The notes under the pieces were generated by a model. That model was not told the DNA's origin and did not search any database. It saw nothing but the letters and a program-made list of their open reading frames with translations. A stretch of DNA of 64,000 bases from an uncultured Eubacteriales bacterium (GTDB lineage Bacteria; Bacillota; Clostridia; Christensenellales; CAG-138). Location: assembly GCA_902765005.1 (NCBI GenBank), contig CACWYB010000004.1, positions 95,179 to 159,178 of the forward strand, given 5' to 3'. Positions 37,255 through 59,510 of this stretch are shown here, piece after piece; the first letter of the stretch is position 1; every line of letters begins with the position of its first letter. Position numbers and translations under genes: made by a program.

Positions 37255-40200
37255 ATGAAAAAGCAACTGTGTCTCTTCATAGCCCTCGTCATGGTTGCGG
37301 GGCTCATATCGTTCCCGGTCAGCACCTTCGCCCAGGATGACCCCGTGCGGGTCCTGCTGAGCACGGAGGGACGGGATGTTTTGACCTTGACCCTTTCCGG
37401 CACCTATACCGCCAACGGCGTCACCCTCACCGGCGGTACATTGACGGTGGCCGTGTCCGGCATGGACGTGGTGGCGACCCACGATCAGCAAGGAGAGCTG
37501 TTCACCGGGGAACGCTTCACCCTGTCCGCCGCCGCGGAAGCCGGGGAGGACGCCTGCTTCACCCTGGCCACGGCCGGGGCCAAGGAGCGTCAATACAAGG
37601 GCGACGTGACCTTCGATGTGTCCGCCGGCGCCGTGCGGGCGGTGAACACCGTGGGCATGGAGGCCTATATCGCCGGGGTGGCCGTGCCCGAGGTGGGCAA
37701 GAACGCCGCCGAAGCCCTGCTCAAGGCGGCCATGGTGGCGGCCAAGGGCTATGCCCTGGCGGAGATGGGCGTCAGCGGCAGCAAGGCCTATGACGTGGAC
37801 GATACCTCCGCCGATCAGGTCTACAACGGCTATTTCCCCACGGCGGATCGGGTCAACGCCTGCGCCGCGGAGGTGGCGGGGGAGACCCTGCTCTACAACG
37901 GCCAGCCCATCAAGACCCACTACGGCTCCAGCAACGGCGGTGTCATCCTGACACCCAAGGCCAAGTGGGGCGGCGGCCAGGCCTATTCCGGCGCCTACGA
38001 GTGCAAGTTCGATCCCTTTGACATCACCCGCACCGAGGTGGTGAACCTGATGATCCCCGTCACGGGGAACGCCCCTGAGACCCTGCCCGAGAAGCTCTAT
38101 GAATACCTGCTGTCCAAGGCCGGCGGCGACGCCATTTTGGCCATCGACGCCCTGGAAGGCTACTGCAGCAAGAGCGACGCGCCCGCGGGCTACGCGCCCC
38201 AGGATGGCTTCACCGCCACGCTCCAGGTGCGCCGGGGGGCTTCCGCCGCCACGGAAACGGTGCAGGTGACCTTCGACGAGCTGTCCAAGAACAAGATCGT
38301 CCTGAGCGACAACAGCGTCCGCTTCGCCACCCAGGTGAGCAGCGGCAGCTGGCTCCTCTGCTGGGGCCAGAGCAAGGGCTCCCGGGTGGGCCTGTCCCAG
38401 AAGGGGGCGGCCCGCATGGCGGATCTGGGCTACAGCTATGCGGACATCCTCAAGTTCTACTATCCCAACGCCGTCCTGACCCGCAGCGACGGGACCGTGG
38501 TCCCTTCCCAGGCTGACCTTTCCACCGCCGCCGTCATGCAGAAGCTGCAGAGCGCGGGGAATCGGAGCATCACGACCACCGGCTATGTGAACGCCGAGAA
38601 CGTGCAGCTCATGAGCAAGGCCTCCTCCAGCGCGGATGTGTGCGCCCGGCCCACCACGCTCAGCCGCTTTGGCATCTATCAGAAGCAGGGGGATTGGTAC
38701 TTCGGCATCGACCTTACCACCGGCGTTCAGGGCTGGGTCCACAAGAGCCAGCTCACCGAGGGCGAGCCTCCCGCCGACCTGCCCACCCCCACCAGCACCC
38801 CCAGCCCCTATGTGAACCTGTCCAGCAGCGTTCTCCACGCCCCGGAGGATCAGCCTGACGACACCGTCATCGGCACCGTCAACACCGACGGCGTGAACGT
38901 TCGTCAGGAGCCCTCCAAGGACAGCGAGAAGCTGGCCCAGTGCAACAAAGACGACCAGGTCTACATCTTCCACCGCACCGGAGACTACTACTACGTGCAG
39001 CTCCCCGGCACGGAGATCAAGGGGTATATCCTGACCAAGTATGTGGACACGGAGAACGAGCAGGATATCCCCGAGGTCACCCCCGAGCCTACGGAGGAGC
39101 CCACGCCGACCCCCACCGAGGAGCCCACGCCGACCCCCACGGAGGAGCCTACGCCAACCCCCACGGAGGAGCCTACGCCGACTCCCACGGAGGAGCCTAC
39201 GCCGACTCCCACGGAGGAGCCCACGCCGACCCCCACGGAGGAGCCCACGCCGACCCCCACGGAGGAGCCCACACCGACCCCCACGGAGGAGCCTACGCCG
39301 GCCCCCACGGAGGAGCCTACGCCGACTCCCACGGAGGAGCCTACACCGACCCCCACCGAGGAGCCCACGCCGACCCCCACGGAGGAGCCCACGCCGACCC
39401 CCACGGAGGAGCCTACGCCGACCCCCACGGAGGAGCCTACGTCGGCCCCCACGGAGGAGCCTACGTCGGCCCCCACGGAGGAGCCTACGCCGACCCCCAC
39501 CGAGGAGCCCACGCCGACCCCCACGGAGGAGCCCACGCCGGCCCCCACGGAGGAGCCTACGCCGACCCCCACGGAAGAGCCTACGCCGGCCCCCACGGAG
39601 GAGCCCACGCCGGAGCCCACGGAAGAGCCTACCCCCGAACCCACCCCTGTCCCCACGGACACTCCGTCGCCCGCGCCTACGGACACCCCGTCGCCCACGC
39701 CCAGCGGTCCGCCCAAGGAGCCCACCCAGGAGATGATCGACAAGGCCGTGAAGGGCAAGCTCATCAAGAGCGGCGTCAACATGCGGGAAGGCCCCAGCAC
39801 CAGCTATAATCTGGTGGACAGCGGGCTAAAGAGCGGCACCGTGGTCACGGTCTACGGGTCCTACGGGTCCTTCTACTTCCTCCGGGTGGACAGCACCAAG
39901 AAGTATGGCTACATCTCCAAGCAGTTCATCCGGCTGGATACGGACGACGACGATGACGACGAGCCCGAGCCCACCAAAAAGGCCACGGCGGAGCCGGCCA
40001 TCCGGCTGAGCCAGGGCGATGTGAACGGGGACGGCCTGGTTTCCGCCGCGGACGCGGCCCTGGTCATCCGCTATGACGCCGGCCGCATCGATCTAAGCGA
40101 CGCCCAGCTCAAGGCCGCCGACATGGACGGGGACGATCAGGTCACCACCATGGACGCCAAGGCCATCCTGCGCTACGTGGCCAGCCGCATGATCCGGTAA
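37255..40200 (+). CDS. Secreted SpoIID/LytB-domain protein with SH3-like domains, long PT-rich repeat linker and C-terminal dockerin
   Basis: Signal peptide [26 protein letters not shown]. SpoIID block seen ([34 protein letters not shown]). SH3b-like segments flank about 23 EEPTPTPT units. The C-terminus carries [20 protein letters not shown]...[19 protein letters not shown]. Confidence 0.8.
39088..39640 (+). repeat. 24-nt in-frame tandem repeat (EEPTPTPT), about 23 copies
   Basis: GAGGAGCC(C/T)ACGCCGAC(C/T)CCCAC(G/C) is reiterated head to tail. Variants PAPT, SAPT and PEPT are present. Confidence 0.95.
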
Positions 40201-42520: not shown

Positions 42521-42586
42521 GTTGCCCGCGGGCCATGACGAAACCACAAAATGTTGGACGAAGGCACAATTTATTTCCTATTATAG

Positions 42587-42615
42587 TTTACAAACACAAC
42601 AACATATGGTATAAT
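42587..42615 (+). promoter_or_regulatory. Promoter upstream of recF
   Basis: TTTACA, 17-nt spacer, TGgTATAAT. Confidence 0.65.
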
Positions 42616-42642
42616 GCTGTATTCTTCTGGGGGTATGGGCTT

Positions 42643-45722
<3,080 letters not shown>

Positions 45723-45751
45723 TAGCGTAATAGCGCAGAGGTTTTAGATAT

Positions 45752-48217
<2,466 letters not shown>

Positions 48218-48339: not shown

Positions 48340-51300
48340 ATGAAGCGTAGGCGCGCGCAAGCGGCGTTGGTCAAGCCTGCCGTAGCGATCATATTGGTGC
48401 TGCTGCTCATCATCGGGGTGAGCTGGGCCTCCTGCCACAAGAAGAAGGCAGCCCAGACCACCGAATCGGTCCAGCTGACCACGGACATTGTCATCAGCGA
48501 GATCATGGCCAGCAACACGGGCATCGTCTCCGACGGAGCGGGGAACCACCCGGACTATGTGGAGATCCACAACACCTCCGCCCATGAGCAGGACATCTCC
48601 GGCTGGGGCCTCTCCGACCGGGAGGATAGGCTCTGGGTCTTCCCCGACAGAACGGTGCTGCCCCCTGACGGCTATATCCTGGTCTGGTGCACCGGCGAAG
48701 AGGTGGAAAACGCCCTCATCGCCGACTTCAAGCTCAGCGCCGGGGACGTGATCCGGCTCACCAACGCCGGCGGCGAGCCCCTGTTCACCATGGAGATTCC
48801 CTCCATCTACACCGGCTATACCCTGAGCTGGGACGACGTGGGCAAGCAGTACACCCAGATGCTGCCCTCGCCCCTGTTTCCCAACACCCCGGCCGGCATC
48901 GCCGCCTATGAGGAGAGCCGGAAGCTGGGCGAAAACAACACGCCGCTCAGCGTGGGTACCACGGCCCAGCACAACGGGGTCTATATCTCCGAGCTCATGG
49001 CCCGCAACGGCACCACCACCGCCGGTCCCAACGGCCTGTATCCGGATTGGATCGAGCTGTTCAACACCACCAACGGCCCTGTGGACCTCTCCGGCTGCGG
49101 CCTGAGCGATGACATCCGCAAGCCCTATACCTACACCTTCCCTGCCGGCACCACCATCGGCGCCGGGGAGTATCTGCTCCTTTGGTGCATGCCCGAGGCG
49201 GTGGAGGGCTATATCTCCCTGCCCTTCAACCTGTCCGGCAGCAAGGGCGATTCCCTGATCCTGGTGGATCAGAACGGCGGCATCCTGGATATGTGCGAGT
49301 TCGGCGCCCAGGAGAAGGACTACAGCCTGATCCGCGGCTACACCGCCACTGGCGAGCTGGACACGGCCGCCGGCTTTGTCTCCTCCGACAAGCCCACCCC
49401 CGGCTATCCCAACACCACCGCCGGCTACAACGCCTTCGACAAGCAGCGGAACCCGGACGTGGGCGTCCACGACATCACCTTCTCCGAGGTCCTGTCCGAC
49501 GGCTACCGCTACAAGCTGGACAGCAAGGGCGTGCCCGACGACGACGATCAGGGCAAGTGGGTGGAGCTCTACAACCGCTCCGATCAGAGCGTGGACCTAT
49601 CCGGCTACTCCCTCTCAGACAACGAGAAAAAGCCCACGAAATGGGTTTTTCCTGAGGGAACGAGTATCGCCGGGAAAGGATATCTCATCCTCTACATGAG
49701 CGGCAGCCTCCCGCTGGAGGGCCAGAAGGAGAGCACCGTCACCGCCGAGATGAAGGCGCGGACGCTGAACTTCTCCGTTTCCGCTCAGGGGGAGACACTC
49801 TATCTCTACGACAACAACAGCACCCTCATCGATCGGGTGAGCGTGCCTGCCTGCACGGCCTGCGTGTCCTACGCCAAGGTGGGGGACACCTGGGGCCTGT
49901 GCGACACCCCCACCCAGGGAGCGGCCAACACCGCACCGCTGAAGGGTACGGCCTACTGCCACGCCCCGGAGGCCTCTTTGGCCAGCGGCGTTTACCACGG
50001 CACCCAGACCGTGAGCATGGAGATCCCCGCCGGGACCTACGTGACCTACACCCTGGACTGCACCACCCCCACGGAATCCTCCACCCGGTATCGGGCCGGG
50101 GAGCAGCTGACCTTCAGCCAAAACGCCGTGCTGCGGGCCCGGGCGTTCAGCGAGGACGGGAGCCTGTATAAGAGCCCGGTGATCTCCAACACCTACATCA
50201 TCGTAGGCGACACCCAGACCACTGACGCCCACGACTCCACTCTCCCCGTGTGCTTCCTGGTCACGGATCCGGACAATCTGTTCAACGTGGATTACGGCAT
50301 CTACGTGGTGGGCAGCCACTACCAGGGCAAGACCGCGGCCACGGAGTGGACCACCCCGGCCAACGACCGAAAGCTGGGGGCCAACTACAACCAGCGGGGC
50401 CGGGAGTGGGAGCGGCAGGCCCATTGGACCTACACCAGTCCCGGGGGACAGGGAGTGCTCTTTGAGCAGGATCTGATGATCCGCATCTTCGGCGCCTTCT
50501 CCCGCTACCAGAAGCAGCGAAACTTCGCCCTCATCGCCCGCAAGGGCTTCGGCGGATCCACCTTCGACTATCCGTTCTTCGCCAACAGGCCCTTTGAGAG
50601 CTATGAATCGCTGGTGCTCCGCTGCTCCGCCAAGGACGCCGTGGCCACCAAGATCCGGGACATCCTGATCACCGGCCTGGTGGAGGACGCGGGGCTGGAC
50701 ACCTGCATTCAGGCCTATGTGCAGACCGCCCTGTATCTCAACGGCCAGTACTGGGGATGCTACAATCTCAGGGAGAAGGTGAGCCGGGCGTTCCTGGCCC
50801 AGCACTACTCCGTCACCAACAAGGACAGCATCGATGTGCTCAAGGGCAACGGCGTGTACGTATCCGGGAATCCCTCGTGCGTGGACGACTATAACGCCCT
50901 CATCAAGTACTGCGAGAACAAGAACTGCGATTTGAGCAACTACGGGGACTATGAGTACGTCTGCTCCCAGATCGACGTGGAGAACTACGCCCTCTACTGC
51001 GCGGTGGAGGTCCTGGTGGGCAACAACGACTCGGGCAACATCAAGTGGTGGCGCTCCAGCGAGAAGGACAACAAGTGGCGCTGGATCCTCTACGACTTCG
51101 ACGATGCCATGGCCCGGAACGACGAGAAGGAGGACGCCTACACCAACGGCTATCGGCGCGACTTCTTCACCAAGTATTTCAACCCCAAGGGGCATGGCGC
51201 CGGCCAGGGCTTTTCCACGGTCCTCTCCCGGTCCCTGCTGAAGAACAACGACTTTGTGGAGATCTTCCTGCGGGCCTGCGCCCAGGTGGTGGACGCTTTT

Positions 51301-51546
51301 GCTCCCGAGAAGATCACCGCCAAGGTGGACGCCCTCTCCGGGAACATCGCCTCGGAGATCGAGTGGGATTTCCCCCGCTGGAGCCTGACGGTGAAGAACT
51401 GGAAAGCCCATCTGAACAACGTGAAGGGCTATGCCACCCACTACCAGGAGTACTACTTCAAGTATCTGAAGGCGTACATCAAGAAGAACACCAACTATAA
51501 GCTGACGGACCAGAAGATGCTGGATATCTTCGGCCGAACCGAGTAA
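48340..51546 (+). CDS. Membrane-anchored protein with three lamin-tail (LTD) domains and a CotH kinase-family domain
   Basis: Signal anchor AVAIILVLLLIIGVSWA. There are three LTD-like units (ISEIMASN..PDYVEIHNTS..ISGWGLSD; ISELMARN..PDWIELFNTT..LSGCGLSDD; FSEVLSDG..KWVELYNRS..LSGYSLSDNE). The C-terminal half shows CotH-like blocks (LRCSAKD..IRD, LNGQYWGCYNLREK, WRWILYDFDDAM). Confidence 0.75.
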   Translation: MKRRRAQAALVKPAVAIILVLLLIIGVSWASCHKKKAAQTTESVQLTTDIVISEIMASNTGIVSDGAGNHPDYVEIHNTSAHEQDISGWGLSDREDRLWVFPDRTVLPPDGYILVWCTGEEVENALIADFKLSAGDVIRLTNAGGEPLFTMEIPSIYTGYTLSWDDVGKQYTQMLPSPLFPNTPAGIAAYEESRKLGENNTPLSVGTTAQHNGVYISELMARNGTTTAGPNGLYPDWIELFNTTNGPVDLSGCGLSDDIRKPYTYTFPAGTTIGAGEYLLLWCMPEAVEGYISLPFNLSGSKGDSLILVDQNGGILDMCEFGAQEKDYSLIRGYTATGELDTAAGFVSSDKPTPGYPNTTAGYNAFDKQRNPDVGVHDITFSEVLSDGYRYKLDSKGVPDDDDQGKWVELYNRSDQSVDLSGYSLSDNEKKPTKWVFPEGTSIAGKGYLILYMSGSLPLEGQKESTVTAEMKARTLNFSVSAQGETLYLYDNNSTLIDRVSVPACTACVSYAKVGDTWGLCDTPTQGAANTAPLKGTAYCHAPEASLASGVYHGTQTVSMEIPAGTYVTYTLDCTTPTESSTRYRAGEQLTFSQNAVLRARAFSEDGSLYKSPVISNTYIIVGDTQTTDAHDSTLPVCFLVTDPDNLFNVDYGIYVVGSHYQGKTAATEWTTPANDRKLGANYNQRGREWERQAHWTYTSPGGQGVLFEQDLMIRIFGAFSRYQKQRNFALIARKGFGGSTFDYPFFANRPFESYESLVLRCSAKDAVATKIRDILITGLVEDAGLDTCIQAYVQTALYLNGQYWGCYNLREKVSRAFLAQHYSVTNKDSIDVLKGNGVYVSGNPSCVDDYNALIKYCENKNCDLSNYGDYEYVCSQIDVENYALYCAVEVLVGNNDSGNIKWWRSSEKDNKWRWILYDFDDAMARNDEKEDAYTNGYRRDFFTKYFNPKGHGAGQGFSTVLSRSLLKNNDFVEIFLRACAQVVDAFAPEKITAKVDALSGNIASEIEWDFPRWSLTVKNWKAHLNNVKGYATHYQEYYFKYLKAYIKKNTNYKLTDQKMLDIFGRTE

Positions 51547-51558
51547 AGGAAGGCAGCC

Positions 51559-52245
51559 ATGGAATACAGGCATGAAATCAAATACCTGATCAGCCTGGGG
51601 GAGGCGGAATATCTGGCCACCCGGCTGCGGCTCACCCTGTCCCAGGACCCCTACGCCGTCAAGAACGGAGGGACCTACTTCATCCGCAGCCTCTACTTCG
51701 ACACGCCCTTCGAGCGGGCCGTGGAGGAGAAGACGGACGGCGTGGCGTTTCGGGACAAGTACCGCATCCGCATCTATGATATGTCCGACAAGACCATCAA
51801 GTTCGAGCGCAAGCACAAGAACGGCCAGTTCATCGGCAAGCAGAGCCTGCTCCTTACCCGGCAGCAGACCGAGGCCATCCTGGCCGGGGAGTACGGCTTC
51901 CTCCTCCATCGAAAGGAGGACTTCGCCGCCGAGCTCTATGCCGCCCTTCGAACCGAGGGCTGGCGGCCCCGGGTCCTGGTGGATTACGATCGGGAGCCCT
52001 TCGTCTTCCCCCTGGAGGACGTGCGCATCACCATCGATCGGAACATCCGCACAGGCCTTCGCTGCACGGACCTGTTCAACCCCCATGCGCCCACCTTCCC
52101 CGCCACGGAGTTTGAGGACGCTTGCATCCTGGAGGTGAAGTTCGACCGCTACCTGCCCGGGTACGTGCGCTCCCTCATCCAGGTGGACGCGGCCAGCCAC
52201 ACGGCGGCCAGCAAGTATCTCTTCTGTCGTCAGTTTGATTTTTAA
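51559..52245 (+). CDS. VTC-domain (polyphosphate polymerase-like, triphosphate tunnel) protein
   Basis: MEYRHEIKYLIS..., YFIRSLYFDT, YRIRIYD, and KFERKHK alternating basic beta-strands, as in VTC/CYTH tunnel domains. Confidence 0.7.
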   Translation: MEYRHEIKYLISLGEAEYLATRLRLTLSQDPYAVKNGGTYFIRSLYFDTPFERAVEEKTDGVAFRDKYRIRIYDMSDKTIKFERKHKNGQFIGKQSLLLTRQQTEAILAGEYGFLLHRKEDFAAELYAALRTEGWRPRVLVDYDREPFVFPLEDVRITIDRNIRTGLRCTDLFNPHAPTFPATEFEDACILEVKFDRYLPGYVRSLIQVDAASHTAASKYLFCRQFDF

Positions 52246-52278
52246 TATATTGCGCAAACGCAGGAAAAGGAGAAAACA

Positions 52279-52935
52279 ATGGACAACGTATTTCAGTACA
52301 TCTTCCAGCTGCAGAACTATCAGCCCATGCTCACCATTCTCACGGTGCTGGCCGCCTTCCTGGTGGGGCTCTATGTGTTCTTCATCTACCGGATCACCTT
52401 CGCCGGAGTTATCTATTCTCGGACCTTCAACCTGAGCCTGGTCATGCTCTGCATGGTCACGGCCACGGTCATCATGTTCATGGCCAATAACGTGAAGCTG
52501 TCCTTGGGCATGGTGGGCGCTCTGTCCATCGTCCGTTTCCGCACCGCCATCAAGGACCCCATCGACACGGTCTTCATGTTCTGGGCCATCGCCGAGGGCA
52601 TCGCCCTGGGCGCGGGCTACTTCATTGCCGGCATCATCGCCGCCGTGTTCATCGGCCTGTGCATGATCCTCATCTCCGTCATCAAGGGCCGCGCCACTAT
52701 GCCCTATCTGCTGATCCTCCACTATGACGAGGGCGCCAGCAAGCAGATCAAGCAGATGGTGGCGCAGCTGCCCCAGGGCCGGATCAAGTCCAAGACCGTC
52801 CAGCGGGAGGGCATCGAGATGACCGTGGAGCTGCGTATCCGCCAGAGCGAGACCGGCTTCGTGGACAAGTTTATGCGTGTGGAGGGCGTGTACGACGCCA
52901 CCCTCATTGCGCACCAGGGCGACATGATCTCTTAA
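52279..52935 (+). CDS. DUF4956-family membrane protein
   Basis: Strong RBS AAAAGGAG. It has 4-5 TM segments, with the hallmark LGMVGALSIVRFRTAIKDP. Confidence 0.7.
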   Translation: MDNVFQYIFQLQNYQPMLTILTVLAAFLVGLYVFFIYRITFAGVIYSRTFNLSLVMLCMVTATVIMFMANNVKLSLGMVGALSIVRFRTAIKDPIDTVFMFWAIAEGIALGAGYFIAGIIAAVFIGLCMILISVIKGRATMPYLLILHYDEGASKQIKQMVAQLPQGRIKSKTVQREGIEMTVELRIRQSETGFVDKFMRVEGVYDATLIAHQGDMIS

Positions 52936-53124: not shown

Positions 53125-54213
53125 GTGGACGCAGATCCCAGTAGCATTCCCATACGGCTGCAGCTGAACGAATCCGTTCCGGAGGCGGCGGGGCGCAGCC
53201 CCGCAGGCCTTATTCTGTTCTTTTTGGCGCTGCTTCTCTTCAGCGCTTTCTTTGCCGGCAGCGAAACGGCCCTGTCTACCGTGAACCGCATCCGCATGAT
53301 GAGCTATGCGGACGACGGGGATCGGCGGGCCCGCCGGGTCATCTATATCCTGGACCACTTCGAGGAAGCCCTGTCGGCCATCCTCATCGGCAACAACATC
53401 ATGCACATCGGCAGCGCGGCTCTGGCCACGCTGACAGCCACCCGCCTGTGGGGCGAAGGAGCCGTGGCGGCCACCACCGTGGTGACGGCCCTTTTGGTGT
53501 TCCTGGCGGCGGAGATGATCCCCAAATCCTTCGCCAAGGCCTGCTCCGAGCGGTTCGCCCTCTTCTGCGCCACGCCTCTGCTGCTGCTCATGAAGGTGCT
53601 CAAGCCCTTCATCCACCTGTTCACCGGCGTGAGCCGGGCCCTCAAGCGCCTGGCCCGCATCCCGGAGGAGGAGGACCCCACGGTCACCGAGGACGAGCTC
53701 CACGACATCATCGACTCCATCATCCCCGATGAGGAAAACGGCGTGGACGAGGACACCGCCGAGCTGGTCCAAAGCGCGCTGGAATTCACCGAGACCCCGG
53801 TCCGGGACGTGTTCACCCCCTGGAAGGAGGTCACCGTCATCCGCCGGGACATGTCCCCCAAGGCGATCGTGGCCCTCATCGAGGGCACCATCCATTCCCG
53901 CCTGCCTGTGGTAGACGGGGAGGGGAACGTGGTGGGCATGCTCCAGATCCGAAAATACCTGAAATCCTACATCCAGCGCCAGGGCCATGTGTCTTTGAGC
54001 CGGGTTATGGATAAGCCCACCTTCGTCTCCGCAGGCGCCCCCATCGACGAGCTGCTGGACACCCTGTCGAGCCAGCGGGTCCACATCGCCATCGTCCGGG
54101 ACGCGGACGAAAAGCCCCTGGGCATCATCACCGTGGAGGACATTTTGGAGGAACTGGTGGGCGAGATCTACGACGAGGACGACAGCACACCCCCGGGAGG
54201 TGGCGAGCTATGA
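53125..54213 (+). CDS. CNNM/DUF21 plus CBS-pair membrane protein (no CorC_HlyC domain)
   Basis: GTG 53125 lies 7 nt after GAGGTGG. It has FFAGSETALS..., LIGNN, and a CBS pair. Confidence 0.75.
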   Translation: MDADPSSIPIRLQLNESVPEAAGRSPAGLILFFLALLLFSAFFAGSETALSTVNRIRMMSYADDGDRRARRVIYILDHFEEALSAILIGNNIMHIGSAALATLTATRLWGEGAVAATTVVTALLVFLAAEMIPKSFAKACSERFALFCATPLLLLMKVLKPFIHLFTGVSRALKRLARIPEEEDPTVTEDELHDIIDSIIPDEENGVDEDTAELVQSALEFTETPVRDVFTPWKEVTVIRRDMSPKAIVALIEGTIHSRLPVVDGEGNVVGMLQIRKYLKSYIQRQGHVSLSRVMDKPTFVSAGAPIDELLDTLSSQRVHIAIVRDADEKPLGIITVEDILEELVGEIYDEDDSTPPGGGEL

Positions 54214-55496
54214 TCGTGAACTTCCTGCTCATCCTGGGCTGCATCCTTCTATCCGCCTTCTTCTCCGGTTCCGAGATCGCCTATTCCGCCGCCCAGGAGC
54301 TGCGGCTGGAGCACGCGGCAGAGGAGCGGGGCGGGGCCTACGCCCTGGCCCTGAAGGTGAAGAAAAGCTTTGAAAAGGCCCTCATCTCCATTCTGGTGGG
54401 CAACAACCTGGTGAACATCGGCGCCTCCGCCCTGGCCACGGTCATCGCCGTGGGCCTTATGGGGGATAAGGGCGCCTGGGTGGCCACGGCCGTCATGACC
54501 GTGCTTATCATCACCTTCGGGGAGATCTCCCCCAAGATCATGGCCAGCGCCCAGCCCGAGCGATTCAGTGCGGTGGCGGCGGTGCCTCTTCGGCTCTGGA
54601 TGGGCCTCACATGGCCCCTGACCTGGCTGCTGGAGAAGCTGTTGCACCTCATCTCCCGTCTCTGGGAGCGGGGGCAGAACAGCGGCCCGGCCGTGACGGA
54701 GGACGATCTGGAGACCATCATCGAAACCGTGGAGGACGAGGGCGTGGTGGACGAGGACACGGCGGACCTGCTGCAAAGCGCCCTGGACTTCGGCGACGTG
54801 CTGGCCTACGAGGTCATCACCCCCCGGGTGGACCTGGTGGCCATAGACCTGGACGACACCCGGGAGCAGATGCTGAAGGTGGCCTTCGCCTCCCCCTACA
54901 CCCGCATCCCGGTCTATCAGGAGACCATGGACAACATCGTGGGCATCCTGCACCTCAACCACCTCTACAAGGCCCTGGTCCAGGACCCGGACGCGGACAT
55001 CGAAGGGCTGCTCCTGCCGCCCATCTTCGTCCACAAGACCATGCCGCTCGATGACGTGTTCAACACCATGCGCAAGAAGAAGGGCCATATGGTCATCGTG
55101 ACCGACGAGTACGGCGGCACTATGGGCGTCCTCACTATGGAGGACGTGCTGGAGCAGCTGGTGGGGGACATCTGGGACGAGTCCGACGAGATCGAGGAGG
55201 AGTTTGTGGAGGTGAAGCCCCACACCTTCGAGGTGGACGGGGACATGCGCCTGGAGGATTTCTTCGCCGAGTTCGATAAGGACGAGGAGGAGATGGACGA
55301 CGACAACGCCACCGTGGGCGGCTGGGCTGTGGAGATGCTGGGGGGCTACCCCAAGCTGCGGGAGAGCTTCACTTTCGAGGATCTGACCGTCACCATCCTC
55401 AAGCGAAACAACCTGCGGGTCCTGCGCCTGCTGGTGGAGCAGGACCCCAATTGGGTGGATGAGGACGAGGTGGAGGACGATTTGATCGACCAGTGA
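54210..55496 (+). CDS. CNNM/HlyC-CorC family transporter (DUF21 + CBS pair + CorC_HlyC)
   Basis: ATGA overlap. It has FFSGSEIAYS, LVGNN, a CBS pair, and a C-terminal transporter-associated domain. Confidence 0.8.
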   Translation: MIVNFLLILGCILLSAFFSGSEIAYSAAQELRLEHAAEERGGAYALALKVKKSFEKALISILVGNNLVNIGASALATVIAVGLMGDKGAWVATAVMTVLIITFGEISPKIMASAQPERFSAVAAVPLRLWMGLTWPLTWLLEKLLHLISRLWERGQNSGPAVTEDDLETIIETVEDEGVVDEDTADLLQSALDFGDVLAYEVITPRVDLVAIDLDDTREQMLKVAFASPYTRIPVYQETMDNIVGILHLNHLYKALVQDPDADIEGLLLPPIFVHKTMPLDDVFNTMRKKKGHMVIVTDEYGGTMGVLTMEDVLEQLVGDIWDESDEIEEEFVEVKPHTFEVDGDMRLEDFFAEFDKDEEEMDDDNATVGGWAVEMLGGYPKLRESFTFEDLTVTILKRNNLRVLRLLVEQDPNWVDEDEVEDDLIDQ

Positions 55497-55533
55497 CCCT
55501 GAGCAAGGGCACGGCTGTTTTCGGGAGGCAACA

Positions 55534-56337
55534 ATGGGTTGGATATGGATACCGGCGGCGCTGGGTGCCCTGTGGCTGTTTCTCATCGCCCCGGGCCGGG
55601 CAGGTAAAGCCGCCCGGGCGCCCTTTGAGGGCCGGGCCTATGCTCACAGGGGGCTCTATGAGCTGGATCAGTCCGTGCCGGAAAACTCCCTGCCTGCTTT
55701 CCGTCGGGCGGTGGAGCATGGCTATGGGGCGGAGCTGGATGTGCAGCTGACCAAGGATCAGCAGATCGTGGTTTTTCATGACGACAGCATGCTCCGGGCC
55801 TGCGGGGTGGAGAAAGCCATCCGCGATTTCACCTATGCCGAGCTGCAGCAGATCCCCCTTTTCAAAACGGAGCAGCGCATCCCCCTCTTTTCGGAGGTGC
55901 TGCAGATTTTCGATGGCCGGCAGCCCCTGATCGTGGAGCTCAAATACGGTCCGGACGCCCCGGCGCTTTGCGAGGCCACCCGAGCCATGCTGGCAGGCTA
56001 TGCCGGTCCGGCCTGTGTGGAGAGCTTTCACCCGGCCATGGTCCGCTGGTTCAAAAAGCATGATCCCCAACGCCTCCGGGGTCAGCTCTCCGAGGCCGCT
56101 TGCTTCTCAAAAAAGACCCTGCCCCTGCCCCTGGCGTTCATGATGAGCCGGCTGCTCACCAACTGCCTGACCCGGCCCCAGTTCATCGCCTATCGGGTGG
56201 GGCCCAAGCCTCTCAGCGTCAGGATAGCGGAGGGCATGGGCGCCATGAAGGTCCTCTGGACCGCCCGGGAGCCGGAGCGGCACGCCGCCCGCATGGGCCA
56301 AAACCACGCCGTCATCTTCGAGGGCTATCGCCCATAA
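55534..56337 (+). CDS. Glycerophosphodiester phosphodiesterase family protein, N-terminal TM
   Basis: RBS GGGAGG. It has AHRG...ENSLPAFRRAVEHGYGAELDVQLTKD..VVFHD. Confidence 0.8.
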   Translation: MGWIWIPAALGALWLFLIAPGRAGKAARAPFEGRAYAHRGLYELDQSVPENSLPAFRRAVEHGYGAELDVQLTKDQQIVVFHDDSMLRACGVEKAIRDFTYAELQQIPLFKTEQRIPLFSEVLQIFDGRQPLIVELKYGPDAPALCEATRAMLAGYAGPACVESFHPAMVRWFKKHDPQRLRGQLSEAACFSKKTLPLPLAFMMSRLLTNCLTRPQFIAYRVGPKPLSVRIAEGMGAMKVLWTAREPERHAARMGQNHAVIFEGYRP

Positions 56338-56359
56338 GGGTGTTTCCTGCATTTTTCTG

Positions 56360-56388
56360 TTGCCAGCGCCCCCTGGATTCGGTATACT
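56360..56388 (+). promoter_or_regulatory. Promoter upstream of the MotA/ExbB-like operon
   Basis: TTGCCA, 17-nt spacer, TATACT. Confidence 0.5.
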
Positions 56389-56409
56389 GCTCTACAGGAG
56401 GGAAAAGAC

Positions 56410-56919
56410 ATGTCCGTGTTTCAGGTGATCCTAAAGAACCTGCTGGGGTTCGACCTCATCATCTTTGTGGCCGCGGCTTTGAACGGGGTCTGCTACTATC
56501 TGGCCCGCAGAAACGCCAACGCCCTCTATCGCAAACTCCATATGATCGTCTTCGTTCCCTCCCGGCGCAGCGACCCGGAAAGCGTGTCCCGGGCCATTCG
56601 GGACATCGATGAGGAGCAGGTGGTGGCCATGCGCAAGCGGTCCGAAAGCCTGTATTCCGTCTTTGTCAATGTCACCGCCATCTTCCCCCTGCTGGGCATT
56701 TTAGGCACGGTGGTGTCCCTTTTGCCCATGGTCTCCGAGCTGGCCGACATGCAAACCAACTTCTTCGCCGCCCTCACCTCCACCTTTTGGGGGCTGGTGT
56801 TCGCCATCCTCTTTAAGCTCCTGGATGGCTTCCTCTCCTCCCGCATGGAGGACAACGACAAGGCCGTGAACCTGCTTTTGGAGCGCCGGGAGCTCCTGGC
56901 GGAAGGGCAGCAAGGGTGA
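56410..56919 (+). CDS. MotA/TolQ/ExbB-family proton-channel protein (169 aa, 3 TM)
   Basis: TM1, a cytoplasmic loop, then the TM2/TM3 block AIFPLLGILGTVVSLL...AALTSTFWGLVFAILFKLL typical of ExbB/TolQ. Confidence 0.75.
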   Translation: MSVFQVILKNLLGFDLIIFVAAALNGVCYYLARRNANALYRKLHMIVFVPSRRSDPESVSRAIRDIDEEQVVAMRKRSESLYSVFVNVTAIFPLLGILGTVVSLLPMVSELADMQTNFFAALTSTFWGLVFAILFKLLDGFLSSRMEDNDKAVNLLLERRELLAEGQQG

Positions 56920-57497
56920 AGCGGCGGGAGATCTTCATAGAGCTCACGTCCCTGCTGGACGTGATCCTCATCATGCTGTTCATTCTGCTCACCCAGGCCA
57001 AAGCCAGCACCGCCCAGGCCCTGGACACAGCCGCCCTGGCCGAGAGCAGTGCGGAGCAGCTGCAGACGGAGCTGTCCGCCGCCTATAGCGAGCAGGATGC
57101 GCTGCGGGAACAGATCAGCGTCCAGGCGGAGCGGGCGGACGCCCTGCAGCGGCAGCTGTGGACGCAGAACCTTGTTTTGGACAATTCCCTGCTGCTCACC
57201 GTCAGCGTGGACAGCACCGGCAGCATTCGCCTGGAAACGGAGGGAGAGGGGTACACCGTCATCGCCTACGATTGGCAAGACGACACCTACGCCCAGAACC
57301 GGCTCCGGGCCTTGGCCCTGGAGAAGCTGAACAATACGGAGCGGGAGGCGGTGTTCCTGGTTTTTCAGTTCGACCGAGCCAGCATCTACCATGCGGAGTA
57401 CGACATGATCGAAACCATCATTCAGGAAGTGAAACAGCAGGCCCGGGAGCGGGATATCCCTCTCTCGGTCCTGGAGCTGGATATATTCGAAGCATAG
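56916..57497 (+). CDS. ExbD/TolR-like TM-helix protein with coiled coil (Asp-containing TM)
   Basis: GTGA overlap with the upstream gene. IELTSLLDVILIMLFILL mirrors the ExbD/TolR TM with its conserved Asp. An Ala/Gln/Leu-rich coiled coil and an alpha/beta domain follow. Confidence 0.55.
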   Translation: MKRREIFIELTSLLDVILIMLFILLTQAKASTAQALDTAALAESSAEQLQTELSAAYSEQDALREQISVQAERADALQRQLWTQNLVLDNSLLLTVSVDSTGSIRLETEGEGYTVIAYDWQDDTYAQNRLRALALEKLNNTEREAVFLVFQFDRASIYHAEYDMIETIIQEVKQQARERDIPLSVLELDIFEA

Positions 57498-57518
57498 ACC
57501 CATAAGGAGGAGCAGGAT

Positions 57519-57980
57519 ATGGAAAACAATACGCGGAGCCCCAAAAGAAATCGCCATACCGGAGGCAAGGTTGCCGGCGGCGCCGTGCTGCTGGCGCTGC
57601 TGCTGGCCGGCGGTCACTTCGGCCTGGGCATCGGCCGGGAGGGCGGCGGTCTGCTGACGGGGGAGGCTCTTCAGGCGGTGACCGAAACCGCTCAGGAAAC
57701 CGTTGCCGAAACGGCGGAAAAGGTTCAGGAGAAGGTGGAGGAGGTCGTCACGCCCCAGGAACAGGATGATGGGGTGCTGACCATCACCGTGAAGGAGGAC
57801 AAGCTCCTTTACGAGGGCAAGGACGTGTCCCTTTCCCAGCTGGAGCAAAATCTTTTGAAGGAGTATAAGATCGACTCCACCACCGTAGAGCTGGTGGACG
57901 ACCACGCCATCAAGGCCGCCTACGACGAGGTGACGGCCCTGCTGCAGAAGCTGAACATCCCGTTTCGTGAGGGGAAATAG
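57519..57980 (+). CDS. Bitopic protein with ExbD-like C-terminal domain
   Basis: RBS AAGGAGGAG. It has a basic N-terminus, a TM (GGAVLLALLLAGGHFGL) and an acidic linker. VLTITVKEDKLLYEGKDVSLSQLEQNL...VELVDDHAIKAAYDEVTALLQKLNI resembles the ExbD periplasmic domain pattern. Confidence 0.5.
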   Translation: MENNTRSPKRNRHTGGKVAGGAVLLALLLAGGHFGLGIGREGGGLLTGEALQAVTETAQETVAETAEKVQEKVEEVVTPQEQDDGVLTITVKEDKLLYEGKDVSLSQLEQNLLKEYKIDSTTVELVDDHAIKAAYDEVTALLQKLNIPFREGK

Positions 57981-57997
57981 AGCAGTAGGCTGATTAT

Positions 57998-58133
57998 GCG
58001 ACTTTTTCTCTTTATACAAAGGAGAAAAAGTCGCCCAAAAAGAGAAACTTAAGAAGAGGTACAGCTTTCGCACAGAAAGAAACACCTCTTCTTAACGTTC
58101 TTTTGAGCCCCTTTTCTTTCAAGAAAAGGGGCT
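57998..58133. repeat. Composite repeat in inverted orientation
   Basis: GCGACTTTTTCTCTTTAtacAAAGGAGAAAAAGTCGC, CCAAAAAGAGAAAC, TTAAGAAGAGGT..ACCTCTTCTTAA, then AGCCCCTTTTCTTTCAAGAAAAGGGGCT (the reverse complement of the CTTGAAAG hairpin type). Confidence 0.9.
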
Positions 58134-58150
58134 TGGCTTTTGATCTGTTC

Positions 58151-58672
58151 CTATAAAAGATGAATCCAATACCGTTCCAAGTCCCTATCCAGCTCCGGCT
58201 CGTGGACGATGGACTCAAAAACGCCGCCATTGTGAAGGATGGTCCGGCGGCTGCCCTCGTTGCCTTGGATGCAGCAGATGAGCACATCGCGGATGCCCAG
58301 CTCCCGGCAGCGGGGCAGGGCGGCCTTCAGCATGGCGGTGGCGTAGCCCTTTTTGCGCTCGTCGGGGCGGACGCTGTAGCCGATGTGTCCCGCGTATTTT
58401 TCCAGATACGCGTTGAAATAATGCCGGATCTGCAGCATGCCCACCACCTTTTGGTCCGCCTCCCGCACATAGATATACTGGGTGGCCGGGACCATGCCCT
58501 CCGGTACATTCTTCGGGTCCTTGCCGGCCAGGGACTTCTCGATCCACGCCTCTGGGCTCTCGCACCGCCTGAGACCCCCGGTGCCGTCCATGGACCCGCC
58601 CTCATCCAAAAAAGCCTGTCGGTAGGCCCAAATCTCTTGGGCGTATGTTAAACAAGGTTCCATCAGCAGCAT
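58151..58672 (-). CDS. GNAT family acetyltransferase
   Basis: Start chosen at ATG 58672, 9 nt after AAGGAGGA, which lies within the upstream gene's 3' end. It has IRHYFN..GHIGYSVRPDERKKGYATAML. Confidence 0.7.
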   Translation of the reverse strand: MLLMEPCLTYAQEIWAYRQAFLDEGGSMDGTGGLRRCESPEAWIEKSLAGKDPKNVPEGMVPATQYIYVREADQKVVGMLQIRHYFNAYLEKYAGHIGYSVRPDERKKGYATAMLKAALPRCRELGIRDVLICCIQGNEGSRRTILHNGGVFESIVHEPELDRDLERYWIHLL

Positions 58673-58673
58673 G

Positions 58674-59510
58674 TCAAGCATCCTCCTTTGCCAAACGGTA
58701 AATCAGGTCAGGGATGGCCCGGCCCCGGGCGTTGCGATAGGCCATGTTCGGCTCCTCCCTCCCTAACAGAGGCGCCCCGGTGGCGGAATTGTCCGACACC
58801 GCCAGCAGCGCCACGGCAGGGACTTCAAACAGGTCCGCCAGCTGGTAGAAAAGGGCCGTTTCCATCTCGATGAGCTCCGCTCCCGCGGCTTTGATCTCAT
58901 GGAGATGGGAATACTCCAGGGCGATGGAATCGGTGCAGAACACCTTCGCCCGATGGATAGGGTACCCCAGTCGTTGCCCTACCTCAATCACCCGGTCCAC
59001 ATAGCCGATATCCGGGGGATAGACGGGGGAGAAGGGGGAAAAGGGGGCCAGCGTTTCCTGGAAATAGGCGCCGGCATAGCTGCCCTGGAGGCAGACATCC
59101 GGGGTGCAGACGCTGCCAACGGGAAGGGCGGGGACGAGGCTCCCCACGGCTCCGGCAAAGAACAGCTTTTTGAACCGCAGCTCCGCGCAGATCAGTATGT
59201 GGTCCAGCACGTTACAGGCCCCGGAGGCGGTTTGGGCCCAGGCGATCTTCACGCCCTCCTTCTCCACCAGGAACCCGGAGAAATAGGCGTGCTGGGCAAG
59301 CTGGGCCACATTGAAGGACGGGTCCAGAATGGTCTTGTCGGGCTTCCAGCCGGGGGCCACCACCAGGGCGTCATATAAGGCGTCCGGCTCAAAGCCGAAG
59401 CACTCTCGGCTCATGACGCCGGCGTTGTACCTCTTCATGTTCTCAAGGGCCTCCCGCAGACGCGCCTTCACAAAAAATCCCTCCGTTTCAGGTTTTTTCG
59501 AGTATAGCAT
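58674..59510 (-). CDS. Nucleoside phosphorylase superfamily (PNP_UDP_1-like) protein
   Basis: FFAGAVGSL and AELIEMETALFYQLA (EMEsaa-type motif). Confidence 0.6.
   Translation of the reverse strand: MLYSKKPETEGFFVKARLREALENMKRYNAGVMSRECFGFEPDALYDALVVAPGWKPDKTILDPSFNVAQLAQHAYFSGFLVEKEGVKIAWAQTASGACNVLDHILICAELRFKKLFFAGAVGSLVPALPVGSVCTPDVCLQGSYAGAYFQETLAPFSPFSPVYPPDIGYVDRVIEVGQRLGYPIHRAKVFCTDSIALEYSHLHEIKAAGAELIEMETALFYQLADLFEVPAVALLAVSDNSATGAPLLGREEPNMAYRNARGRAIPDLIYRLAKEDA

What the first reader, a model, noticed from the sequence alone, without database searches (positions are those of the whole stretch)
56410..57980. MotA/ExbB-type proton channel with ExbD function split over two bitopic proteins in an apparently monoderm genome
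Three coupled genes follow a TTGCCA-17-TATACT promoter:
- A minimal 169-aa, 3-TM ExbB/TolQ-like channel.
- A 193-aa protein (GTGA overlap) whose single TM, LTSLLDVILIMLFILL, carries the ExbD/TolR-type Asp. A long Ala/Gln/Leu-rich coiled coil and a globular domain follow.
- A 153-aa protein with a TM lacking Asp, an acidic linker, and a C-terminal domain shaped like the ExbD periplasmic domain.

Ton/Tol stators energise outer-membrane processes. The rest of the window looks Gram-positive in style, with sporulation-type SpoIID and lipobox and dockerin proteins, so the target of this motor is unclear. Candidates are wall-associated machinery, secretion, or a defence or gliding-type function.

No flagellar, Ton-receptor, Tol-Pal or Zorya-like partner genes are adjacent.
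Basis: partly seen in the sequence, partly recalled or inferred. Interest (0 to 1): 0.6.

Follow-up and report, generated by a model that had tools for sequence, protein, structure and literature searches.

The report
Orphan ExbB/ExbD-type motor trio, monoderm Clostridia
Three tightly linked genes in a single-membrane rumen bacterium encode a stripped-down relative of the proton-driven ExbB/ExbD (Ton/Tol) motors of double-membraned bacteria, kept under selection as a stand-alone unit although the outer membrane such motors normally serve is absent, so what it drives is unknown.

Summary
A sigma-70-like promoter precedes three co-directional genes.
- A (169 aa) has three TM segments and scores above the Pfam MotA_ExbB cut-off. 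It keeps both ExbB channel threonines.
- B (193 aa) starts in a GTGA overlap with A. It has an invariant ExbD/TolR-type TM motif with the Asp, a heptad-phased coiled-coil stalk, and a ~100-aa α/β head with no family assignment.
- C (153 aa) has a TM without Asp and a low-complexity acidic linker. Its C-terminal domain best matches the E. coli ExbD periplasmic domain.

The trio recurs as a unit with unrelated flanking genes in rumen and gut Clostridia MAGs. A and B co-occur exactly in 10 of 17 genomes of the genus. In two congeners lacking the trio, a NUDIX-type gene follows the conserved upstream gene instead. dN/dS is 0.10-0.35.

Four genomes of the genus lack Omp85, LpxC, TonB_C and TonB-dependent receptors, so the host is monoderm.

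My best reading is an ion-driven 5:2-type A5B2 motor whose output lies outside the cytoplasm. B would be a rigid stalk reaching the wall and C a TonB/TolA-like tether. The load is unknown.

I rate it a new variant of a known kind. It is unannotated and uncharacterised, and of moderate to high interest.

The parts
56360..56388 (+). sigma-70-like promoter, TTGCCA-17 nt-TATACT
   Evidence: 10 of 12 consensus positions matched. It is the only such site in 55400-58800. Function is not shown.
56399..56404 (+). Shine-Dalgarno AGGAGG, 5 nt before the ATG of gene A
   Evidence: Read from the sequence.
56410..56919 (+). Gene A: 169-aa minimal ExbB/TolQ-type channel subunit with 3 TM segments and a short cytoplasmic part
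   Evidence: Pfam MotA_ExbB scores 48.2 bits against a cut-off of 22.9. There are three TM-like segments. P93, G96, G99, T100, V101, T125 and G128 align with the E. coli ExbB/TolQ TM2-TM3 signature; T100 and T125 fall on the GTVWG and ALLAT threonines that I recall as ExbB T148/T181. It is the only PF01618 hit in the genome.
56916..57497 (+). Gene B: 193-aa ExbD/TolR-like axle subunit. It has a TM with invariant Asp15, a coiled-coil stalk (about residues 28-89) and an α/β head (91-189)
   Evidence: Its GTG start overlaps the stop of A (GTGA). Pfam ExbD scores 22.8 bits, below the 25.4 cut-off, but 28 of 31 family members match. The motif (E/D)LT(S/P/A)LLDV is present in 118 of 124 full-length representatives. 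The AF2 model has pLDDT 86. The stalk length varies in steps of 7 residues and shows an a/d heptad pattern.
57504..57510 (+). Shine-Dalgarno AAGGAGG for gene C
   Evidence: Read from the sequence.
57519..57980 (+). Gene C: 153-aa bitopic protein. It has a basic N-terminus, a Gly/Ala-rich TM without Asp, an acidic low-complexity linker and an ExbD-fold C-terminal domain (86-152)
   Evidence: In the AF2 model the domain has pLDDT above 90 and residues 13-77 are below 50. The best Foldseek matches are the E. coli ExbD periplasmic domain, 8vgd_B and 8p9r_A. The Pfam ExbD match is weak (residues 70-145, E 0.025; 6 of 19 members match). The motif DDHAIK and G15, K17, V18 are invariant.
57998..58034 (.). 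Perfect 13-bp inverted repeat (GCGACTTTTTCTC / GAGAAAAAGTCGC) just after gene C, with no T-run after it
   Evidence: Read from the sequence. It was not reported by the terminator scan.
58103..58136 (+). Terminator-like hairpin between the trio and the convergent GNAT gene
   Evidence: 15-pair stem, 6 G-C pairs, T-rich tail.

Best explanation
The three genes encode an ion-driven (probably proton-driven) envelope motor of the ExbB/ExbD-TolQ/TolR class, adapted to a cell with no outer membrane.

**Proposed parts (inferred)**
- A forms the pentameric channel ring.
- Two copies of B sit in its pore with their TM Asp as the ion-binding site.
- The two B helices continue outside the membrane as a parallel, heptad-phased coiled coil. 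At the standard 0.15 nm rise per helical residue this stalk would be roughly 9-13 nm long, with a globular head at its tip.
- The head places the tip at or in the peptidoglycan layer.
- C is anchored by its own TM helix beside the ring. It carries an ExbD-fold domain on a flexible linker and occupies the place TonB or TolA has in Ton and Tol.

**Proposed action (inferred)**
- Ion flow turns the A ring relative to the B axle.
- The mechanical output is therefore outside the cytoplasm: either rotation or tension of the B stalk, or pulling on C.
- The load would be a wall-associated partner not encoded next to the operon.

**Shown versus inferred**
- Shown: family membership of A; the ExbD-type TM of B; the ExbD fold of C; the fixed trio; purifying selection; a monoderm host.
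- Inferred: the 5:2 stoichiometry, wall contact of the B head, association of C with the ring, and the pulling mechanism.
For: **A is an ExbB/TolQ-type subunit**
- It scores above the Pfam MotA_ExbB cut-off and keeps the aligned ExbB/TolQ channel threonines.
- Its cytoplasmic parts are only about 48 and 29 residues long. That leaves no MotA-type or ZorA-type cytoplasmic output surface.

**B is an ExbD/TolR-type axle**
- The TM motif with Asp is near-invariant across 118 of 124 full-length representatives.
- hhalign aligns it with ExbD residues 18-42, Asp on Asp.
- Translational coupling of A and B by a 4-nt overlap recurs in L004, L007, L017 and L018.
- In 112 of 114 close family members, the spacing from Asp15 to the head differs from the window's only by multiples of 7 residues (73, 80, 87, 94, 101, 108). 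A clear a/d heptad pattern is present. AF2 predicts one continuous helix over residues 2-89 at pLDDT about 90. Together these indicate a rigid stalk that keeps its register.

**C resembles the third partner of Ton/Tol**
- Its C-terminal domain has the ExbD fold.
- Its linker varies in length and composition, including TQAP repeats in L018.

**The three genes behave as one unit**
- The trio keeps the same order with unrelated flanking genes.
- A and B co-occur in exactly the same genomes of the genus.
- dN/dS against four close orthologous loci is 0.10-0.13 for A, 0.24-0.33 for B and 0.19-0.35 for C.

**The host is monoderm**
- Omp85, LpxC, TonB_C and TonB-dependent receptor barrels are absent, while the diderm control genomes all ring.
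Against: - No complex prediction or experiment was possible, so the stoichiometry and the contacts of C are untested.
- The B head has no detectable ExbD, OmpA, LysM or other wall-binding signature. Its best fold matches are weak RNase H-like or RuvC-like hits, so wall binding is a guess.
- No candidate load is encoded nearby in any locus examined.
- The system is rare and patchy: 1 other genome of 398 in the class, 0 of 400 in the phylum sample, and absent from three 92-97% complete congeners. It is therefore dispensable.
- B stalk length and C length show no obvious correlation in the few paired loci available.
Confidence: 0.55

Rival explanations
1. It is a Zorya-like envelope sentinel or abortive-infection module. 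Perturbation of the wall by a phage would be sensed through the B stalk and head or through C. The channel would then open and depolarise the cell, with no separate effector.
For: - Presence and absence vary between species of one genus, and in two congeners lacking the trio a NUDIX-type gene follows GDPD at that position.
- The taxonomic spread is rare and patchy.
- B gives weak TM-level hits to ZorB models.
Against: - No significant PADLOC hit for A, B or C.
- A has no ZorA-like long cytoplasmic tail, and no ZorC, ZorD or ZorE-like effector is present.
- The flanks are housekeeping genes, about 8 kb from recF-gyrB-gyrA.
- Synteny is conserved within the genus, and GC content matches the genome.
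Confidence: 0.12
2. It is an energiser for uptake or export through the thick wall. A substrate-binding or secretion component encoded elsewhere would be worked on by C or B, making it a true Ton analogue for nutrient capture or protein release.
For: - The architecture parallels ExbB-ExbD-TonB in gene order, in an anchored third protein with a flexible linker, and in the ExbD fold.
- MATE or EamA transporters lie downstream in some loci.
- Earlier scan notes report other MotA/ExbB-like pairs of Clostridia beside importers. These are unchecked leads, not evidence.
Against: - No transporter, binding protein or surface receptor is consistently adjacent. The flanks differ in every context examined.
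- The MATE gene of the window lies on the opposite strand, beyond two other genes.
Confidence: 0.15
3. It acts during sporulation. At that stage a Firmicute transiently has two membranes around the forespore, and a Ton/Tol-like motor could span the intermembrane space.
For: - The window encodes SpoIID-domain and CotH-domain proteins.
- One homologous locus lies near SpoIIE and a sigma factor gene.
Against: - The promoter is of the housekeeping sigma-70 type.
- Neighbourhoods are not consistently sporulation-related.
- Close relatives of the same genus lack the trio.
- Whether the genus sporulates was not tested.
Confidence: 0.06
4. It is a vestigial, non-functional remnant of an ancestral Ton/Tol system. 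PMC12204202 suggests this for Ton components occasionally seen in monoderms.
For: PMC12204202 states that Ton systems seen in monoderm Clostridia are likely non-functional. The trio is dispensable in congeners.
Against: - All three frames are intact, with dN/dS of 0.10-0.35.
- The ion-binding motif is near-invariant across about 120 diverged representatives.
- Heptad-phase conservation in the stalk argues for a mechanical constraint.
- The B head and the architecture of C are derived features, not decayed ExbD or TonB.
Confidence: 0.03

Closest known systems
ExbB-ExbD-TonB (Ton system) and TolQ-TolR-TolA (Tol system) of diderm bacteria
   Same: - A is a 3-TM ExbB/TolQ-type subunit with both channel threonines.
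- B has the ExbD/TolR TM motif with the essential Asp, and its gene is translationally coupled to A.
- The third gene encodes an N-terminally anchored protein with a variable linker and a small C-terminal domain.
- The C-terminal domain of C has the ExbD periplasmic fold.
   Different: - There is no outer membrane, no TonB_C domain, no TonB-dependent receptor and no LPS marker LpxC.
- The cytoplasmic domain of A is much shorter than in E. coli ExbB or TolQ.
- B has a 60-90-residue coiled-coil stalk and a head unrelated in sequence to ExbD.
- The ExbD-fold domain sits on the Asp-less third protein.
exbB-exbD1-exbD2 operons with two ExbD paralogues (for example Xanthomonas, Bacteroidota; cited from my own knowledge, not tested here)
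   Same: One ExbB-type gene is followed by two ExbD-related bitopic genes.
   Different: Here only the first partner keeps the TM Asp, and only the second keeps a recognisable ExbD periplasmic fold. The host is monoderm.
GldL-GldM / PorL-PorM gliding and type IX secretion motor of Bacteroidota
   Same: The concept is the same: a 5:2-type motor whose dimeric axle subunit extends as a long rigid shaft (18 nm for GldM, PMC9389320) to deliver work outside the cytoplasmic membrane.
   Different: - There is no sequence relation to GldL or GldM, since A is PF01618.
- The shaft is a simple coiled coil, not a four-domain stack.
- No gliding or T9SS genes are present.
ZorA-ZorB core of Zorya anti-phage systems
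   Same: It is a MotA/ExbB-superfamily channel with an Asp-bearing bitopic partner. It stands alone, is non-flagellar and is patchily distributed.
   Different: There is no long ZorA cytoplasmic tail, no OmpA-like wall-binding domain in B, no effector genes and no significant PADLOC match.
Flagellar stator MotA-MotB / PomA-PomB
   Same: The TM2-TM3 of A gives weak hits to MotA, MotP and PomA models (E 5e-7 to 2e-5, far below the cut-offs). The partner carries an Asp in its TM.
   Different: - A has 3 TM segments rather than 4, and no torque-generating cytoplasmic domain.
- B has no plug or OmpA-like domain.
- No second PF01618 gene exists in any of the 17 genomes of the genus, so there is no flagellar stator.

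Membership tests
MotA/TolQ/ExbB proton channel family (PF01618), protein A | Profile match above the curated cut-off | tested here: met
   48.2 bits against a cut-off of 22.9, residues 55-149. The whole-genome search gives the same hit.
MotA/TolQ/ExbB proton channel family (PF01618), protein A | ExbB/TolQ topology (3 TM) and conserved TM2/TM3 channel residues (the ExbB threonines I recall as T148 and T181) | tested here: met
   Three TM-like segments. T100 and T125, plus P93, G96, G99 and G128, are invariant in an alignment with E. coli ExbB and TolQ.
MotA/TolQ/ExbB proton channel family (PF01618), protein A | Pentamer around a dimer of the partner (5:2) | not testable with these tools
   No multimer prediction was available.
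ExbD/TolR (PF02472), protein B | Profile match above the curated cut-off | tested here: not met
   The window protein scores 22.8 bits against a cut-off of 25.4. 28 of 31 family members match at E below 0.01, best 4.2e-6. The signal comes from the TM region; the head alone gives no ExbD hit.
ExbD/TolR (PF02472), protein B | Single N-terminal TM with the conserved Asp (E. coli ExbD D25) | tested here: met
   Asp15 is invariant. The motif is present in 118 of 124 representatives. hhalign aligns B 8-32 with ExbD 18-42, Asp on Asp.
ExbD/TolR (PF02472), protein B | ExbD/TolR-type periplasmic domain | tested here: inconclusive
   The head has the same β-β-β-α-β-α-β order as the ExbD-fold domain of C. 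However, its top 50 Foldseek hits are RuvC, YqgF and uS11-type folds with none to ExbD, and sequence profiles find nothing.
ExbD/TolR (PF02472), protein C | ExbD/TolR-type periplasmic domain | tested here: met
   The best Foldseek hits are 8vgd_B, 8p9r_A and 8vgc_A: TM-score 0.63-0.69 on the target, rmsd about 3 Å over 72 residues, probability 0.99-1.0, but E only 0.02-0.04. Pfam ExbD matches weakly at residues 70-145.
ExbD/TolR (PF02472), protein C | TM Asp | tested here: not met
   The TM reads VAGGAVLLALLLAGGHFGL with no acidic residue. The His is replaced by Tyr or Leu in relatives.
Ton system | TonB (TonB_C domain), TonB-dependent outer-membrane receptor, outer membrane | tested here: not met
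   PF03544, PF00593, PF01103 and PF03331 are absent from G000 and three congeners, one of them 97% complete. Control genomes ring.
Tol-Pal system | TolA, TolB and Pal partners | not tested
   Only the absence of outer-membrane markers was tested. None is adjacent.
Zorya | ZorA with a long cytoplasmic tail, ZorB with a wall-binding domain, ZorC/D or ZorE effectors | tested here: not met
   The C-terminal tail of A is about 29 residues. There is no significant PADLOC hit and no effector-like neighbours.
Flagellar stator MotAB | 4-TM MotA with a torque-generating cytoplasmic domain, OmpA-like MotB C-terminus, flagellar genes | tested here: not met
   A has 3 TM segments and is 169 aa. NCBIfam MotA-type hits score 22-29 bits against cut-offs of 237-394. 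There is no OmpA hit in B. Flagellar genes themselves were not searched.

The most novel reading that the evidence does not exclude
This would be a genuine mechanical analogue of Ton/Tol, or of the GldM shaft, for a Gram-positive envelope. It would be a 5:2 proton motor whose only output is an extracellular, register-locked coiled-coil axle (B) plus a tethered ExbD-fold partner (C). It would do work on the cell wall or on a wall-bound protein, and would be the first such non-flagellar motor function defined in a monoderm.
Probability: 0.3. Interest if true: 0.85.

Novelty: new variant of a known kind. Interest (0 to 1): 0.62.

Why it matters
ExbB/ExbD-class motors are understood as machines that carry energy from the inner to the outer membrane.

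[quoted passage not shown] PMC12204202 dismisses such genes in monoderms as likely non-functional.

This trio bears on that question in four ways.
- It is complete, compact at 1.6 kb, and under purifying selection.
- It has all the ion-pathway residues.
- Its stalk keeps a fixed heptad register while its length varies.
- No outer membrane is present.

It therefore gives a concrete, clonable system for asking what a Ton-like motor does in a single-membrane cell. It also adds a new partner architecture to the motor superfamily: the coiled-coil ExbD-like axle and the Asp-less ExbD-fold protein. B and C carry no Pfam annotation in most members; the few public names seen were 'hypothetical protein', 'DUF5320 domain-containing protein' and one JGI 'biopolymer transport protein ExbD'.

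Tried and rejected
- **PDB profile search with the B alignment.** It returned only coiled-coil noise (SNAREs) and no ExbD or TolR.
- **hhalign of B against C.** Only a 20-column match in the last helix and strand, E 0.09, so homology of the two globular domains is not shown.
- **hhalign of C against E. coli ExbD.** The register is right but the match is insignificant, E 0.56.
- **Pfam scan of ten B heads alone.** No ExbD hit and nothing else meaningful.
- **RNase H or RuvC-like nuclease reading of the B head.** Rejected. The match is weak (TM-score about 0.4). Strand 1 (LLLTVSV) has no catalytic Asp. The domain is extracytoplasmic by the positive-inside rule.
- **PADLOC scans.** No defence family matched. 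The weak PDC-S57 and ZorB hits have E above 0.002.
- **Horizontal transfer signature.** None. The GC of the trio is 0.59-0.61 against 0.609 for the genome.
- **Correlation of B stalk length with C length.** There were too few reliably paired loci and no trend (window 193/153, L007 192/158, L004 203/142, L017 208/163, L018 254/190). The result is inconclusive.
- **dN/dS for the distant loci L004, L017 and L018.** Saturated, or my automatic CDS choice was unreliable. I did not use these values.
- **Literature searches.** No paper on this family was found.
- **Third Foldseek job.** Not used. It could only repeat the same whole-chain query.
Full report
**1. What is there**

On the + strand, a sigma-70-like promoter (TTGCCA-17-TATACT, 56360-56388) is the only such site in 3.4 kb. 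It is followed by AGGAGG and three genes.
- A: 56410-56919, 169 aa.
- B: 56916-57497, 193 aa. Its GTG start overlaps the TGA stop of A as GTGA.
- C: 57519-57980, 153 aa, with its own AAGGAGG.

A perfect 13-bp inverted repeat (57998-58034) follows. A terminator-like hairpin (58103-58136) then separates the trio from a convergent GNAT gene.

The flanking genes are two CNNM/CorC proteins, a membrane-anchored GDPD, a GNAT, a PNP-like phosphorylase, a MATE transporter and a GH3. recF-gyrB-gyrA lie about 8 kb upstream. No flagellar, Ton, Tol-Pal or Zorya partner is adjacent.

**2. Protein A**

A scores 48.2 bits on Pfam MotA_ExbB, against a cut-off of 22.9. It has three TM-like segments.

Aligned with E. 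coli ExbB and TolQ, fetched from NC_000913, A keeps the TM2/TM3 signature. P93, G96, G99, T100, V101, A121, L122, T125, G128 and L129 are all retained. T100 and T125 fall on the two ExbB channel threonines, in the GTVWG and ALLAT motifs. That these are T148 and T181 is from my own knowledge.

The stretch between TM1 and TM2 is about 48 residues and the C-terminal tail about 29. Both are far shorter than in ExbB or TolQ. A therefore offers little cytoplasmic surface for an output.

A is the only PF01618 gene in the genome. No genome of the genus has a second one, so it is not a flagellar stator.

**3. Protein B**

The N-terminus MKRREIFIELTSLLDVILIMLFILL is nearly invariant in the family.
- The motif (E/D)LT(S/P/A)LLDV occurs in 118 of 124 full-length cluster representatives.
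- hhalign places B 8-32 on ExbD 18-42, Asp15 on Asp25.
- Pfam ExbD scores 22.8 bits for the window protein, just under the 25.4 cut-off, and matches 28 of 31 members.

AlphaFold2 (31-sequence alignment, pLDDT 86) gives one continuous helix over residues 2-89 and a β-β-β-α-β-α-β head over 91-189.

The helix beyond the membrane shows a clear a/d heptad pattern rich in Ala and Leu. Family members differ by insertions of 7, 14, 21 or 28 residues. In 112 of 114 close relatives, the spacing from Asp15 to the conserved Thr95 is 73, 80, 87, 94, 101 or 108. Length is free, but the angular register between the ion site and the head is kept. That is what one expects of a rigid dimeric shaft.

At 0.15 nm per helical residue, the stalk would be about 9-13 nm long (inference).

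The head has no family.
- Ten heads scanned alone give no Pfam hit.
- A profile search of the PDB finds nothing.
- The best Foldseek matches are weak RNase H-like folds (RuvC, YqgF, uS11; E from 7e-4, TM-score about 0.4).

It carries a conserved aromatic and polar set: Y118, W120, N128, Q151, Y152, D153, R154, Y158 and Y162. This could be a ligand site, but that is speculation.

**4. Protein C**

C has a basic N-terminus with invariant G15, K17 and V18, and a Gly/Ala-rich TM without any acidic residue. A low-complexity acidic linker follows. In a relative it is replaced by TQAP repeats. The C-terminal domain carries the invariant motif DDHAIK.

AF2 models residues 86-152 at pLDDT above 90 and the linker below 50.

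Foldseek ranks the E. coli ExbD periplasmic domain first (8vgd_B, 8p9r_A, 8vgc_A, 8pek, 2pfu). The TM-score is 0.63-0.69 on the target, rmsd about 3 Å over 72 residues, and probability 0.99-1.0. The E-values are only 0.02-0.06. Pfam ExbD matches residues 70-145 weakly.

So the ExbD TM sits on B and the recognisable ExbD periplasmic fold sits on C. In gene order and build (anchor, flexible linker, small domain), C stands where TonB or TolA stands.

**5. The trio is a unit under selection**

The same order A-B-C, with the A/B 4-nt overlap, recurs with unrelated flanking genes.
- Transketolase and RpiB upstream, MATE downstream (L004).
- DUF3793 upstream, a deacetylase downstream (L007).
- RNase H upstream, Mfd downstream (L017).
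- A reverse transcriptase upstream, UPRTase downstream (L018).
- A very diverged low-GC version in L022.

Within the genus:
- B is present in 10 of 17 genomes, and A in exactly the same ten.
- Synteny GDPD-A-B-C-GNAT-PNP is kept in two congeners (L016, L013).
- In two congeners lacking the trio (G015, G003), a 160-aa NUDIX-type gene directly follows GDPD. In G015 it sits between GDPD and GNAT.

dN/dS against four close orthologous loci is 0.10-0.13 for A, 0.24-0.33 for B and 0.19-0.35 for C. GC content matches the genome.

**6. Distribution**

| Sample | Genomes with a B match |
|---|---|
| Own genus (including own genome) | 10 of 17 |
| Other genera of the family and order | 0 of 24 |
| Class sample (excluding own genome) | 1 of 398 |
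| Phylum sample (excluding own genome) | 0 of 400 |

In protein collections, the word-based search found 1006 A-type, 308 B-type and 217 C-type clusters at 90% identity. The exhaustive profile search of 1.84 billion representatives found 501 B relatives at E up to 1e-3, 138 at up to 1e-10 and 37 at up to 1e-30. Nearly all listed hits are 170-235 aa.

Named members come from Lachnospiraceae and 'Clostridiales' MAGs, mostly labelled 'hypothetical protein'. A congener is the rumen MAG RUG10656. Several of the samples are rumen assemblies.

**7. Envelope**

Omp85/BamA, LpxC, TonB_C and TonB-dependent receptor barrels are absent from the window's genome (77% complete) and from three congeners (68%, 93% and 97% complete). 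The diderm control genomes were all detected. The host is monoderm and has no Ton machinery.

**8. How it most likely works**

Shown:
- A is an ExbB-family channel subunit with an intact ion pathway.
- Its partner B carries the ExbD ion-binding helix.
- The third partner C carries the ExbD fold.
- The three are inherited and selected together in a cell without an outer membrane.

Inferred:
- A5B2 assembles like ExbBD or TolQR.
- Ion flow through Asp15 turns the ring relative to the B dimer.
- Because A has almost no cytoplasmic domain, the work is delivered outside.
- The B coiled coil is a rigid, register-locked stalk that puts its head at the wall. It would act either as an anchor (the stator, as TolR and MotB are anchored) or as a turning shaft (as proposed for GldM, PMC9389320).
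- C rides on the ring like TonB or TolA, and its ExbD-fold domain is pulled through its flexible linker.
- The load is not encoded nearby and remains unknown.

I give this reading about 0.55. Of that, the A-B motor core is about 0.85, and any particular output mechanism is no more than about 0.3.

**9. Rivals**

- **Zorya-like sentinel or abortive-infection channel (0.12).** The patchiness fits. The lack of PADLOC hits, tail, effectors and defence-island context does not.
- **Energiser for an uptake or secretion component encoded elsewhere (0.15).** This is an elaboration of the main reading with a defined load.
- **Sporulation-stage role (0.06).**
- **Vestigial remnant, as PMC12204202 suggests for monoderm Ton genes (0.03).** This is contradicted by the selection and invariance data.

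**10. Comparison and novelty**

The trio works like, and its A subunit belongs to, the ExbB/TolQ branch of the MotA/ExbB superfamily. These are the 'generic ion transporters' of PMC12505986.

It is not a Ton, Tol, Zorya, flagellar or Gld system, because defining parts of each were tested and are absent.

New here:
- the coiled-coil-stalked ExbD-like axle with an unassigned head;
- the Asp-less protein carrying the ExbD fold;
- their fixed association in monoderm Clostridia.

No paper describing the family was found. Earlier notes of this scan describe the same kind of trio in other genomes and reach similar conclusions. I treat them as agreement, not as evidence.

**11. Limits**

- No multimer prediction was available.
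- There is no cultured carrier or experiment.
- The Foldseek E-values for C are modest, since the domain is small.
- The AF2 alignments were shallow (31 and 19 sequences).

Noticed in passing
L026 2319-2801 and L025 2319-2801 (genomes G015, G003 of the same genus): In two congeners without the trio, a 160-aa gene directly follows GDPD. It carries a NUDIX-box-like motif (GGGLEAGEDEGTCCVRELAEETG, read by eye). In G015 it lies between GDPD and the convergent GNAT gene, so this slot holds alternative cargo.
   Followed up: partly
window 48340-52935: A 1068-aa protein with three Lamin-tail domains, a CHB_HEX_C domain and a CotH kinase domain is followed by a VTC-domain protein and a DUF4956 protein. 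This may be a CotH-VTC-DUF4956 cluster. Its function was not examined.
   Followed up: no
window 37255-40200: A 981-aa protein combines a SpoIID domain, several bacterial SH3 domains and a C-terminal type I dockerin. This is an unusual pairing of a wall-remodelling domain with a cellulosome-type anchor.
   Followed up: no
window 53125-55496: Two tandem CNNM/CBS (CorC-type) paralogues overlap by 4 nt. Only the second has the CorC_HlyC C-terminal domain.
   Followed up: no
window 42535-48217: recF, gyrB and gyrA lie in a row, so the trio sits in the origin-proximal core of the chromosome.
   Followed up: no
L018 7307-7879: In this Lachnospiraceae-type locus, the acidic linker of protein C is replaced by about 12 tandem TQAP/PTQA repeats, a proline-rich spacer reminiscent of TonB.
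   Followed up: partly
L022 969-2607 (genome G162, low GC): A very diverged version of the trio: A 177 aa, B about 246-259 aa with DLTPLLDIV and a longer Lys/Glu-rich stalk, and C 121 aa. The family therefore extends further than the E-value thresholds used for the tallies.
   Followed up: partly
window 57998-58034: A perfect 13-bp inverted repeat lies directly after the stop of gene C, with no T-run on either strand. It may be a transcript-stabilising or attenuating hairpin.
   Followed up: no
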